From the NCBI RefSeq assembly GCF_003334315.1, contig NZ_QOWR01000015.1: a stretch of 64,000 bases of DNA; one strand, written 5' to 3'. Source of the stretch: Escherichia coli (lineage in GTDB: Bacteria > Pseudomonadota > Gammaproteobacteria > Enterobacterales > Enterobacteriaceae). A program made the position numbers. Within the stretch, counting starts at the first letter, position 1. Each line of letters opens with the position of its first letter. Below, in pieces: positions 21,001 to 24,000 of this stretch.

Positions 21001-24000
21001 ATTTTTCACCTGTAATATTTCTGCCAGCACGCTGATGGCGATCTCCTGCGGCGTTTCCGCACCTATGTTGTAACCAACGGGCGCATGTAAACGGGCAATA
21101 TGTTCTTCAGCCACGCCTTTCTCACGCAATTGACGCAGGAAAAGCTGAACCTTGCGACGACTTGCCAGCAACCCCAACCATGCAATGGGCTGTTCAATGA
21201 GTTTGTCGAGGGCTTCACGATCCTGATTATTCGTGGCAATCAGGACAAAATTATCAGGGCGAATATCCAGTGCTTCCACTGCCGCACCAAACGACTCAGC
21301 ATGGAGAAGCGTGGTTGATGGTGGGAATAGTTCAGGATTGAGGCTTTCGCGATAAATATCGGCAACGGCAATATCAAATCCTAATAGCGCCGCACTCTGG
21401 GCTATCGCCCGGTTGACATGCCCCGCGCCAATCAACACCAGACGTGGACGCATACCATGGACGCTGATAAATACTGACATTGCACCTCCACAATCTGACC
21501 CGACAGCATCCGCACCGTTACGAGCCATACGTCCATGGAATAATCGCGGCTTACGTTCCTGCAATGCCTGAAGCGACTCTTCAATCACCTTCCGCTCAAC
21601 CATTCCGCCACCAATTGTACCGACGATAGAACCATCGGCGCGCACTAACATTTGTGCAGAATGGCGGGGAGTCGAGCCTCGGCTATCAACAATTTGCGCC
21701 ATCGCAAACGGACAATTTTGCTCTTCGAGTTTTGCAGCCTCTGTGAAAATATTCATACCAACCTCAATGGATATCCTTTCAGTAACCCGGAATACCCGGG
21801 CCGCTAATTCACAAATCTGCGCGCGATTGCAGGATGTTCTTGTATATCGCCCAGCCAGATTGCCTCTACGTCATGTTGTTGCAGCGGTTGAAGGAGCTCG
21901 CTTTGTGCAATCGCATTCTCACATTGAGAAAAACGGTTAATGAACCAGACTCGCCGACAACCTTGCGGTACGTTTTTAAACGCCCCCTGAGGGTGGCGAA
22001 CCAGCGCAACGAGATCGCTCAGTTGCAAGGTTGCATCAGGTGTTAACCCGGTAATATCAGCAAACTGCGACCAGCGATGGACATTTTCTGTGCTCACTTT
22101 CGCGCCCAAAGTATGTCCTCCCATCACAGCAATCACGCAGCAACTGCTTTTGGGTATGCAAGGTTCGTGCTCATCAGGCGCTTTTAACGGCATTCCACGC
22201 GAGCCATCTGCTTCAATGAGAATTACGTCACACTCTGGTCGTTGCACCAGTGCATCAATCGCTTCTGGCGTAAATCCCTGCACTTTTCCCTGGTTCGCTT
22301 TCCAGCTGTGAAAACAAAATGAAATGGGGGATGTAAGAGACGCATGAAGAAGCATGGCGGGATCACGACAGAAAACCACGGGCCAGTGTGACTTTGGCAT
22401 AAACATATGTGTCGTCGTAGTGATTAACACACGCCTGCCGCGAGTCTGGAGCAGTTCTGCCAGCCAAAAAAGCAAGCTGGTTTTCCCCCCAGCACCAACA
22501 ACAGAAATCACAGTGGGACGTTTCTGCGCACCTAAATCAATGAATAATGCCGATGGGTCAACTATACTTTTCACGAGTCTTTATGACCTCTCTGGGATAA
22601 ATTACCCCCAACTTAATCCAACAGGAAGTAACGCAATTATCAGGCGTTATTAGCCCCTATAAATAATGGAACCACTATGTCAGCCATCGACTGTATAATT
22701 ACCGCTGCCGGATTATCATCAAGAATGGGGCAATGGAAAATGATGTTACCCTGGCAACAGGGAACAATTCTTGATACAAGTATCAAAAATGCGTTGCAGT
22801 TTTGTAGCCGAATTATTTTAGTCACCGGCTATCGTGGTAATGAACTGCACGAACGTTATGCGAACCAGAGTAATATCACTATTATTCACAACCCAGATTA
22901 TGCCCAGGGTTTACTAACATCAGTCAAGGCCGCAGTACCCGCAGTGCAAACAGAACATTGTTTTCTCACCCACGGTGACATGCCAACCCTCACCATTGAT
23001 ATTTTTAGAAAAATCTGGTCGTTACGAAATGATGGCGCAATACTGCCACTCCATAATGGCATCCCCGGCCATCCGATTTTAGTGTCAAAACCATGCTTGA
23101 TGCAGGCATTCCAGCGACCCAATGTCACCAATATGCGTCAGGCACTCCTTATGGGAGATCATTATTCCGTCGAAATAGAAAATGCAGAAATAATTTTAGA
23201 TATTGATACTCCGGACGACTTTATTACAGCGAAGAAAAGGTATACTGAAATTTAGAAAATGTAGTTAAACGATTGCGTTCAAATATTTAACCCCTCCAGC
23301 ACTCTTTATCATAATGATAAGGAATCACTGATTTTGAGAAAAGAGAAAAAGTGATAAATGGGCTGGCAATAATAATTTTCAGGAGTGATTTTAATTCTCA
23401 TTTGGCACCTGTGAGTTCATTCACAAAAAGCCCTTAAGTTTCGAGCCGCCTCACATTTTTTTATATTTCCCGCCAAACCTGGCAAGAGTGGTGCGATTGT
23501 TGCTCTATCCCCCTAAACCACCGGATTTCTCAACACCGGTCACTCAATGATATCTGTATAAGCTAAGGAGAGGGTTATGGGGGATATTATGCGTCCCATT
23601 CCGTTTGAGGAACTTTTGACGCGCATATTTGATGAATACCAACAACAACGCTCAATCTTTGGTATTCCCGAGCAACAGTTTTACTCACCCGTAAAAGGTA
23701 AAACTGTTAGCGTCTTCGGTGAAACCTGTGCCACTCCCGTCGGCCCTGCCGCTGGCCCGCACACGCAGCTCGCGCAAAATATTGTCACTTCCTGGCTGAC
23801 TGGCGGACGCTTCATCGAACTAAAAACCGTCCAAATTCTTGACCGCCTGGAGCTGGAAAAGCCTTGTATCGATGCCGAAGACGAGTGCTTTAACACCGAA
23901 TGGTCTACCGAATTTACCCTGCTTAAAGCCTGGGATGAATACCTCAAAGCCTGGTTTGCCCTGCACCTTCTCGAAGCGATGTTCCAGCCTTCTGATTCCG

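What the first reader, a model, noticed from the sequence alone, without database searches (positions are those of the whole stretch)
23480..23494. Second sigma-54-like motif upstream of the ygfK-ssnA-ygfM-xdhD operon
GG-N10-GC with TGGCAA / GTGCG hexamers lies about 85 bp upstream of ygfK in a 320-bp AT-rich leader. Together with the xdhA site, it would place both Mo hydroxylase operons under one sigma-54 regulon.
Basis: seen in the sequence. Interest (0 to 1): 0.4.

Follow-up and report, generated by a model that had tools for sequence, protein, structure and literature searches.

The report
Known sigma-54 promoter of ygfK, misregistered

Summary
The window is the E. coli chromosome, at the mocA-ygfK spacer. 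The string TGGCAAGAGTGGTGC is at 23480-23494 as described, 83 bp from the ygfK ATG. As a sigma-54 site it is weak. It scores 8.5 bits on a matrix built from 130 ChIP-bound E. coli sites, ranks 52nd in the window, and only 2 of 135 bound sites score lower. Its pattern occurs at chance density. It exists only in Escherichia and one Citrobacter.

The real site overlaps it, 9 bp downstream: GTGGTGCGATTGTTGCT, 23488-23504. It scores 14.5 bits and ranks 2nd in the window after xdhA. It is the motif that Bonocora et al. 2015 assigned to a strong sigma-54 ChIP-seq peak. It is present upstream of ygfK in 79 of 80 species, from Escherichia to Aeromonas and betaproteobacteria.

The "one regulon" idea holds and is also published (YgeV iModulon). 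I add one observation: a conserved palindrome TTATCA-N3-TGATAA about 180 bp upstream. The same motif lies upstream of the xdhA, ygeW and ygfT sigma-54 sites, so it is probably the YgeV enhancer. A perfect CRP site lies between it and the promoter.

Verdict: already known, low interest.

The parts
23488..23504 (+). Sigma-54 -24/-12 promoter of ygfK-ssnA-ygfM-xdhD: GTGGTGCGATTGTTGCT, with GG at 23490-91 and GC at 23502-03. The inferred transcription start is about 23515, giving a 62-nt leader.
   Evidence: 14.5 bits, rank 2 in the window. Identical to motif OS31 of Bonocora 2015, ChIP-seq FAT 26. An equivalent motif of 11.6-19.9 bits is present in 79 of 80 ygfK loci, against 1.7% of shuffled upstream regions. 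TGG and GTTGC are at least 90% conserved.
23480..23494 (+). It is a weak sigma-54 look-alike that overlaps the real -24 element.
   Evidence: 8.5 bits, rank 52. Pattern at chance density. Found only in L001-L004. Not conserved. Zhao Table 2 gives the same register.
23306..23320 (.). Perfect palindrome TTATCATAATGATAA, centred about -202. Candidate enhancer (UAS) for the sigma-54 activator YgeV.
   Evidence: Present with at most 2 mismatches in 75 of 77 loci, against 2.9% of shuffles. Offsets cluster at -181 to -183 (34 loci) and -161/-162 (27 loci). A matrix built from non-Escherichia sites scores it 23.0 bits, the top hit in the window.
23335..23343 (+). Conserved half-site TTTGAGAAA, two helical turns downstream of the palindrome. 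Possibly a second activator contact.
   Evidence: At least 75-90% conserved in 77 sequences. Seen as TGATTTTGAGAA or TGATTTTGATAA across loci.
23384..23402 (+). Conserved block GTGATTTTAATTCTCATTT (about -131 to -113). The binding factor is unknown; it contains TTCTCA, the complement of TGAGAA.
   Evidence: Phylogenetic footprint and anchored sequences.
23410..23425 (.). CRP site TGTGAGTTCATTCACA, a perfect match to TGTGA-N6-TCACA, centred about -97.5.
   Evidence: The only perfect match in the window. Found with 0-1 mismatch at the same offset (-78/-79) in about 39 Enterobacterales loci. ygfK is listed as a CRP genomic-SELEX target (PMC3105977).
23440..23455 (+). Conserved block TTCGAGCCGCCTCACA, centred about -67.5. 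CRP-like, with one perfect half-site, or a site for another bending protein.
   Evidence: TTCGA and CTCACA are at least 90% conserved. Present at offset -48/-49 in nearly all loci, including Aeromonas.
23520..23540 (+). Small 5'-proximal stem-loop of the ygfK leader: ACCGG (23520-24) pairs with CCGGT (23536-40).
   Evidence: 93% of cells are paired in 37 sequences, 2 pairs have compensatory changes, and 2 of 500 shuffles reach the observed values. A hairpin is seen at the same place in most loci. RNAalifold itself predicted nothing.
23577..26675 (+). ygfK ORF (1032 aa), the first gene of the operon served by the promoter. The Shine-Dalgarno sequence AAGGAG is at 23565-70.
11525..13303 (-). ygeV, the only sigma-54 enhancer-binding protein gene in the cluster. 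Presumed activator.
   Evidence: Residues 268-588 match the AAA+/HTH region of PrdR, NtrC, NorR and PrpR at E 1e-96 to 1e-115, below every equivalog cut-off.
7751..7767 (+). xdhA sigma-54 promoter CTGGCGTAAATCTTGCC. A UAS-like TTATCACATTGATTT lies at 7619-7633.
   Evidence: 15.5 bits, rank 1. Bonocora OS29. UAS matrix 13.3 bits.
13672..13688 (+). ygeW sigma-54 promoter CTGGCACACTTATTGTT. A UAS-like ATATCAATATGAGAA lies at 13458-13472.
   Evidence: 13.7 bits. Bonocora OS30. UAS matrix 19.9 bits.
38495..38511 (-). ygfT sigma-54 site TATGCCCGTTTATTGCA. A UAS-like ATATCAATATGAGAA lies at 38676-38690, about 180 bp upstream.
   Evidence: Bonocora OS32. 5.2 bits on my matrix. UAS matrix 20.0 bits.

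Best explanation
The mocA-ygfK spacer carries one functional sigma-54 (RpoN) promoter for ygfK-ssnA-ygfM-xdhD. Its -24/-12 element is GTGGTGCGATTGTTGCT at 23488-23504.

Shown by others: RNA polymerase with sigma-54 occupies this site as a closed complex (ChIP-seq), and ygfK expression depends on rpoN (microarray).

Inferred here:
- Transcription starts near 23515.
- It requires the enhancer-binding ATPase YgeV, bound about 200 bp upstream at the conserved palindrome TTATCATAATGATAA (23306-20) and neighbouring half-sites.
- cAMP-CRP bound at the perfect site 23410-25 (about -97.5), and perhaps at the conserved -67.5 block, bends the DNA so that YgeV reaches the closed complex. This would make the operon both inducible by uric acid and sensitive to glucose.
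- The same palindrome upstream of the xdhA, ygeW and ygfT sigma-54 sites puts the whole uric-acid/purine cluster under one activator.
For: Promoter register:
- The motif and a ChIP-seq peak of FAT 26 are reported for exactly this 17-mer (PMC4591121 Table 1, OS31). All five published sites in the window map with one coordinate offset.
- 79 of 80 ygfK loci from Enterobacterales, Aeromonas, Photobacterium and betaproteobacteria carry a motif of at least 11.6 bits in this register, in most loci 57-130 nt before the ATG. Only 1.7-2.5% of control regions do.
- The footprint shows TGG and GTTGC at least 90% conserved.

rpoN dependence: Zhao 2010 Table 2.

Enhancer:
- The palindrome is present in 75 of 77 loci against 2.9% of shuffles. 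Its offsets differ by 21 bp, two helical turns.
- A matrix trained only on non-Escherichia ygfK loci puts its five best window hits next to sigma-54 sites. Four of them lie 134-216 bp upstream of the four intergenic ChIP sites. Shuffled windows give 0.76 hits of at least 10 bits.

Activator: YgeV is a sigma-54 enhancer-binding protein. The YgeV iModulon contains these operons, and a ygeV mutant lowers ygfT expression (PMC10602906; PMC12132413).

CRP: the site is perfect and conserved, ygfK is a CRP SELEX target, and the pathway is glucose-repressed (10.1101/2025.05.19.654654).

Induction: ygfK and ygfT are strongly induced by uric acid (10.1101/2022.07.24.501321).

No sigma-70 promoter is found beyond chance.
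Against: - I found no mapped transcription start for ygfK, so the choice of register rests on matrix score and phylogeny. ChIP-seq cannot separate sites 9 bp apart. The peak centre (window 23514) is 18 bp from the downstream motif centre and 27 bp from the upstream one.
- In the main text of the in vitro RpoN-holoenzyme genomic SELEX paper, ygfK does not occur, while the ygeV/ygeW spacer is listed (PMC8743547).
- I found no experiment showing YgeV bound to the palindrome. The palindrome is A/T-rich, and in E. coli its right arm (ATAATGATAA) resembles part of a Fur box (from my own knowledge).
- The xdhA copy is weak (13.3 bits). Two further matches (21914-32 and 15300-18) are not upstream of a promoter.
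- ygeV could not be checked in the other species, because the 3-kb flanks hold no ygeV.
- CRP can repress some sigma-54 promoters, so the sign of its effect here is inferred.
Confidence: 0.8

Rival explanations
1. The reader's register (TGGCAA-N5-GGTGC, 23480-94; the Zhao 2010 prediction) is the functional sigma-54 promoter in E. coli, with a start near 23506.
For: The GG-N10-GC spacing is correct, and TGGCA is closer to the -24 consensus TGGCAC than TGGTG is. Zhao et al. chose this register. A few ChIP-bound sites score as low: 2 of 135 at or below 8.5 bits.
Against: It scores 6 bits less than the overlapping site. It is absent or negative-scoring in 76 of 80 loci, while the downstream register is kept in 79 of 80. 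It varies even within Escherichia (L002 and L003: TGGCAATAG, TGGTAAGAG). The pattern is at chance density. MEME on the ChIP-seq data picked the other register.
Confidence: 0.05
2. Both overlapping registers bind sigma-54 holoenzyme in Escherichia. The weak upstream site competes with or modulates the functional one, as a lineage-specific tuning.
For: Both have the invariant GG and GC dinucleotides, and they are mutually exclusive sterically at 9 bp apart. The upstream one is kept in four closely related loci, L001-L004.
Against: There are no data for two binding positions. Those four loci are nearly identical throughout the spacer, so retention is expected from relatedness alone. The score is near the floor for bound sites.
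Confidence: 0.07
3. Sigma-54 binding here is non-productive, and ygfK is transcribed from a sigma-70 promoter or by read-through from mocA.
For: Many sigma-54 ChIP sites have no known output (PMC4591121). The microarray effects are only about 2-fold. No terminator-like site was found after mocA.
Against: The -24/-12 motif, upstream palindrome, CRP site and fixed spacings are conserved across orders of bacteria. Sigma-70-like matches do not exceed chance, and none is near the ATG. ygfK co-varies with the other sigma-54 operons of the cluster.
Confidence: 0.05

Closest known systems
ygfK sigma-54 site OS31 of Bonocora et al. 2015 (PLoS Genet, PMC4591121); marked there as a predicted promoter in EcoCyc
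   Same: It is the same DNA: GTGGTGCGATTGTTGCT, + strand, 62 nt before ygfK, ChIP-seq FAT 26.
   Different: Nothing in the promoter itself. This analysis adds the cross-species conservation, the rejection of the alternative register, and the upstream architecture.
ygfK promoter prediction of Zhao, Liu & Burgess 2010 (NAR, PMC2831329)
   Different: It is 9 bp upstream of the conserved, ChIP-assigned register, and it scores 6 bits lower.
xdhA, ygeW and ygfT sigma-54 promoters of the same cluster (Bonocora OS29, OS30, OS32)
   Same: Each has a -24/-12 motif plus a TATCA-N3-TGA(T/G)AA palindrome 134-216 bp upstream. All are members of the YgeV iModulon.
   Different: Spacings and motif strengths differ: xdhA has a weak UAS, and ygfT has a weak -24/-12 of 5.2 bits. 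A perfect CRP site is seen only at ygfK; ygeW has a 1-mismatch site at another offset.
prpBCDE promoter of E. coli and Salmonella (PrpR, sigma-54, with cAMP-CRP dependence); from my own knowledge, not tested here
   Same: A catabolic sigma-54 promoter with an enhancer-binding activator far upstream, subject to catabolite repression through CRP.
   Different: The activator and inducer are different, and the role of CRP at ygfK has not been tested.
DioR sigma-54 regulon of Clostridiales (PMC6615313)
   Same: A sigma-54 activator controls the homologous genes ygeW-ygfK-ssnA-ygeY, dpaL (the gene the preprint calls ygeX), yqeB and yqeC-ygfJ.
   Different: It is in a different phylum, and that paper counts the DioR UAS motif among those with no similarity to the other UAS motifs. 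It was not compared with the palindrome here.

Membership tests
Sigma-54 (RpoN) -24/-12 promoter | GG and GC dinucleotides exactly 10 bp apart within TGGCAC-N5-TTGCW | tested here: met
23488-23504 has GG at 23490-91 and GC at 23502-03.
Sigma-54 (RpoN) -24/-12 promoter | Weight-matrix score within the range of experimentally bound sites and above the local background | tested here: met
23488-23504 scores 14.5 bits, equal to the median of 130 bound sites, and ranks 2 in the window.
Sigma-54 (RpoN) -24/-12 promoter | Occupancy by sigma-54 in vivo | not testable with these tools
   Literature: ChIP-seq peak of FAT 26 centred at window 23514 (PMC4591121). The peak cannot resolve a 9-bp difference.
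Sigma-54 (RpoN) -24/-12 promoter | Expression of the downstream gene depends on rpoN | not testable with these tools
   Literature: ygfK is +2.1-fold after sigma-54 induction and -2.4-fold in the rpoN deletion (PMC2831329).
Sigma-54 (RpoN) -24/-12 promoter | Conserved in orthologous upstream regions, oriented towards the gene | tested here: met
Present in 79 of 80 loci for 23488-23504, against 1.7-2.5% of controls.
Sigma-54 (RpoN) -24/-12 promoter | A cognate enhancer-binding protein and upstream activator sites about 80-250 bp upstream | tested here: inconclusive
   YgeV is a sigma-54 enhancer-binding protein. A conserved palindrome lies at about -202 and is shared by the four promoters. Binding of YgeV to it has not been shown.
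Sigma-54 (RpoN) -24/-12 promoter | Transcription start about 12 nt downstream of the GC | not testable with these tools
   I found no mapped 5' end. The position 23515 is inferred.
[quoted passage not shown] | Match to TGTGA-N6-TCACA, conserved in position | tested here: met
   23410-25 matches 10 of 10 and is the only perfect match in 64 kb. It has 0-1 mismatch at offset -78/-79 in about 39 loci.
[quoted passage not shown] | CRP binding and cAMP-dependent regulation | not testable with these tools
   Literature: ygfK is among the CRP genomic-SELEX targets (PMC3105977), and the pathway is glucose-repressed.

The most novel reading that the evidence does not exclude
The palindrome TTATCA-N3-TGATAA (with TGAGAA variants), held at phased distances of about -182 or -161 from the -24 element, is the previously undescribed YgeV enhancer. 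[quoted passage not shown] Its ygfK-promoter architecture is conserved from Escherichia to Aeromonas, and the sigma-54 motif and palindrome also occur in betaproteobacteria. I found no description of this site in the searchable literature, but that search is incomplete.
Probability: 0.55. Interest if true: 0.35.

Novelty: already known. Interest (0 to 1): 0.12.

Why it matters
The ygfK-ssnA-ygfM-xdhD operon encodes the first steps of the recently described reductive uric-acid degradation pathway of gut bacteria, which is relevant to gout and hyperuricaemia. Knowing which 17 bases form its promoter, and where its activator and CRP probably bind, helps anyone who wants to re-wire or de-repress the pathway, for example in probiotic strains. 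For discovery purposes the finding is a re-observation of a published site in a superseded register. The only added value is that cross-species evidence settles which of the two published registers is right, and that a candidate YgeV enhancer motif is pointed out.

Tried and rejected
- Rfam scan of 23200-23700 for a leader riboswitch: no match up to E = 1.
- RNAalifold on 37 leaders: no consensus structure. The small hairpin has only modest support when named explicitly.
- tblastn for YgeV in the 3-kb flanks of the 80 loci: none found, so co-occurrence of the activator could not be tested. mocA-ygfK synteny was seen in 50 loci.
- Sigma-70 promoter and terminator scan of the spacer: nothing beyond chance.
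- Search for a sigma-54 motif between the UAS-like site at 21914-32 and yqeB: best score 4.3 bits, so no promoter is assigned.
- Candidate sigma-54 site upstream of uacT (38799-815): only 5.65 bits, left as a note.
- Literature search for 'uacR': irrelevant clinical hits only.
- IHF consensus, looked for by eye in the conserved blocks: no convincing match. This was not computed.
- The E. coli palindrome resembles part of a Fur box (my own knowledge). I rejected this as the main reading because only TATCA and TGATA are conserved across species, and because the motif co-localises with the cluster's sigma-54 sites.
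Full report
**Identity of the region.** The 441 bases around the finding are 100% identical to many complete E. 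coli chromosomes. There they lie between mocA (ygfJ) and ygfK, annotated "putative selenate reductase subunit YgfK". In the window the mocA ORF ends at 23255 and the ygfK ORF starts at ATG 23577. The spacer is 321 bp, and its upstream part has 30-39% GC.

**The observation.** TGGCAAGAGTGGTGC is at 23480-23494, exactly as described. GG is at 23481-82 and GC at 23493-94, so the spacing is that of a sigma-54 -24/-12 element. The motif ends 83 bp before the ATG. The description is therefore accurate.

It is not more than chance, for four reasons.
- The pattern TGGCA-N7-TGC occurs 6 times in the window against 4.5 expected, and 32 of 100 shuffles reach 6.
- I built a 17-column weight matrix from the sigma-54 ChIP-seq motifs of Bonocora et al. 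2015 (PMC4591121, Tables 1-2). I left out the five sites that lie in this window, which left 130 sites. It ranks 52nd of 128,000 window positions.
- Bound sites have a 5th percentile of 10.7 bits and a median of 14.5 bits. Only 2 of 135 bound sites score 8.5 or less.
- A shuffled window holds about 24 equally good matches.

**What is really there.** The same scan gives 14.5 bits, rank 2 in the window, for GTGGTGCGATTGTTGCT at 23488-23504. Rank 1 is the xdhA promoter (7751-67, 15.5 bits), and the ygeW site (13672-88) scores 13.7 bits.

This 17-mer is the motif that Bonocora et al. report for ChIP-seq peak OS31. That peak has FAT 26, the motif is on the + strand, the distance to ygfK is 62 nt, and it is marked as "predicted in EcoCyc". 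All five published sites in the window (xdhA, ygeW, ygfK, ygfT and intragenic yqeC) map to window coordinates with a single offset of 2,990,505. This confirms the correspondence.

Zhao, Liu & Burgess 2010 (PMC2831329, Table 2) give aaccTGGCAAGAGTGGTGCGATtgtt at -97 to -80. They also report that ygfK rises 2.1-fold after sigma-54 induction and falls 2.4-fold in an rpoN deletion. So two registers exist in the literature.

**Which register is right.** I fetched 80 ygfK loci from different species: Escherichia, Citrobacter, Klebsiella, Edwardsiella, Morganella, Serratia, Aeromonas, Photobacterium and some betaproteobacteria.
- In 79 of 80, the best + strand match in the 450 nt before ygfK is a sigma-54 motif of 11.6-19.9 bits, median 15.0. 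In most loci it lies 57-130 nt before the ATG (233 nt in one), in the register of 23488-23504.
- Only 1.7% of shuffled upstream regions and 2.5% of other 450-nt stretches of the same loci reach 11.6 bits.
- The register 9 bp upstream scores above zero only in L001-L004, which are three Escherichia and one Citrobacter. Even there it varies (TGGCAATAG, TGGTAAGAG) while the downstream 17-mer is invariant.
- In a footprint of 77 distinct sequences, TGG (23489-91) and GTTGC (23499-503) are at least 90% conserved. TGGCAA (23480-85) is not conserved.

The remaining weakness is that I found no mapped transcription start. ChIP-seq also cannot resolve 9 bp. The peak centre, at window 23514, is 18 bp from the downstream motif centre and 27 bp from the upstream one.

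**Upstream architecture (new here, inferred).** When the loci are anchored on the -24/-12 motif, several conserved blocks appear.
- **Palindrome.** TTATCATAATGATAA is at 23306-20. A version with at most 2 mismatches is present in 75 of 77 loci, against 2.9% of shuffles. It sits at -181 to -183 in 34 loci and at -161/-162 in 27 loci, counted from the start of the 17-mer. The two classes differ by 21 bp, which is two helical turns.
- **Half-site.** TTTGAGAAA is at 23335-43.
- **Block of unknown function.** GTGATTTTAATTCTCATTT is at 23384-402.
- **CRP site.** TGTGAGTTCATTCACA at 23410-25 is the only perfect TGTGA-N6-TCACA in the window. It has 0-1 mismatch at the same offset in about 39 Enterobacterales loci.
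- **Second CRP-like block.** TTCGAGCCGCCTCACA at 23440-55 is conserved even in Aeromonas.

With a start at about 23515, these elements are centred near -202, -176, -122, -97.5 and -67.5.

**One regulon.** I built a 19-bp matrix of the palindrome from 57 distinct sites in non-Escherichia loci only, and scanned the window with it. The best hits were:

| Window position | Score (bits) | Location |
|---|---|---|
| 23304-22 | 23.0 | ygfK, offset -184 |
| 38674-92 | 20.0 | about 180 bp upstream of the ygfT sigma-54 site |
| 13456-74 | 19.9 | ygeW, offset -216 |
| 21914-32 | 15.9 | inside the 3' end of yqeC |
| 7617-35 | 13.3 | xdhA, offset -134 |
| 15300-18 | 11.4 | inside ygeX |

Shuffled windows give 0.76 hits of at least 10 bits, with a mean maximum of about 10.3. 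So all four intergenic sigma-54 ChIP sites of the cluster have this motif 134-216 bp upstream. The ygeW and ygfT copies are identical 15-mers.

The only sigma-54 activator gene in the cluster is ygeV (11525-13303, minus strand). Its residues 268-588 match the AAA+/HTH region of PrdR, NtrC, NorR and PrpR.

Published data agree with a shared regulon.
- A ygeV mutant lowers ygfT expression (cited in PMC10602906).
- ygfK and ygfT are strongly induced by uric acid (10.1101/2022.07.24.501321).
- The pathway is glucose-repressed, and a Crp site is noted between ygeV and ygeW (10.1101/2025.05.19.654654).
- CRP genomic SELEX lists ygfK, ygeV<>ygeW and ygfT<>ygfU (PMC3105977).
- In Clostridiales the homologous genes form a sigma-54 regulon under a different activator, DioR (PMC6615313).

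**Mechanism.**
- Shown by others: sigma-54 holoenzyme sits at the ygfK promoter, and ygfK expression responds to rpoN.
- Inferred here: the closed complex forms on 23488-23504. YgeV oligomerises on the palindrome and neighbouring half-sites about 200 bp upstream. cAMP-CRP at -97.5, and perhaps at the -67.5 block, bends the intervening DNA. ATP hydrolysis by YgeV then opens the promoter in response to uric acid or a derivative. This gives a 62-nt leader that begins with a small conserved stem-loop.
- Not shown: the direction of the CRP effect, and the binding of YgeV to the palindrome.

**Rivals.**
- The upstream register is the functional one: about 0.05.
- Both registers bind in Escherichia: about 0.07.
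- Binding is non-productive, and transcription comes from a sigma-70 promoter or by read-through: about 0.05. The sigma-70 scan shows nothing beyond chance.

**Negative or weak points.**
- In the main text of the in vitro RpoN genomic SELEX paper, ygfK does not occur (PMC8743547).
- Rfam finds nothing in the leader, and RNAalifold predicts no consensus structure.
- No ygeV was found in the 3-kb flanks of the other loci.

**Verdict.** The sequence observation is accurate. The motif, however, is a chance-level look-alike that overlaps the true, conserved and already published sigma-54 promoter 9 bp downstream. The regulon interpretation is correct and is also already published. Novelty: already known. 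Interest: low. The modest additions are phylogenetic evidence that settles which of the two published registers is right, and a candidate YgeV enhancer motif shared by the cluster's four sigma-54 promoters.

Noticed in passing
window 23263-23279: A PurR-like operator half-palindrome (AGTTAAACGATTGCGTT) lies just after the mocA stop codon. Its right half ATTGCGT matches the PurR consensus TTTGCGT at 6 of 7 positions around a central CG; that consensus is recalled from memory. It is conserved in Escherichia, Citrobacter, Klebsiella indica and Edwardsiella. A purine repressor site next to a purine-catabolic operon would make sense.
   Followed up: no
window 21914-21932: A strong match (15.9 bits) to the candidate YgeV palindrome, CATTCTCACATTGAGAAAA, lies inside the 3' end of yqeC, about 160 bp upstream of the yqeB ATG. 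No sigma-54 motif above 4.3 bits lies between it and yqeB. The intragenic ChIP site IS34 (22157-73, minus strand) lies about 225 bp upstream of it, so the palindrome would sit downstream of that promoter.
   Followed up: partly
window 38676-38690 and 38799-38815: The ygfT-uacT divergent spacer has a single palindrome, ATATCAATATGAGAA. It lies about 180 bp from the ygfT sigma-54 site and 109 bp from a weak sigma-54-like motif facing uacT (CTGGCACTCCACGAGCA, 5.65 bits). uacT is in the YgeV iModulon, so one enhancer may serve both directions.
   Followed up: partly
window 13458-13472 vs 38676-38690: The ygeW and ygfT upstream palindromes are identical 15-mers (ATATCAATATGAGAA). They are followed by TTAC and AATTAC respectively, although they lie 25 kb apart in otherwise unrelated spacers.
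   Followed up: no
window 23520-23540: A conserved 5-bp stem-loop lies at the very 5' end of the predicted ygfK mRNA: ACCGG...CCGGT in E. coli, GCCGG...CCGGC, GTCGG...CCGAC and GGGG...CCCC elsewhere. In 37 sequences 93% of cells are paired and two pairs have compensatory changes. It could stabilise the transcript, or it could be a DNA operator.
   Followed up: partly
window 15300-15318: A palindrome-like match, AAATATCATCTTGATATCG (11.4 bits), lies inside ygeX with no nearby sigma-54 motif. It is possibly a chance match.
   Followed up: no
window 23384-23402 and 23440-23455: Two blocks, GTGATTTTAATTCTCATTT and TTCGAGCCGCCTCACA, are conserved as strongly as the promoter itself, even in Aeromonas, which lacks the perfect CRP site. 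No factor is assigned to either.
   Followed up: partly
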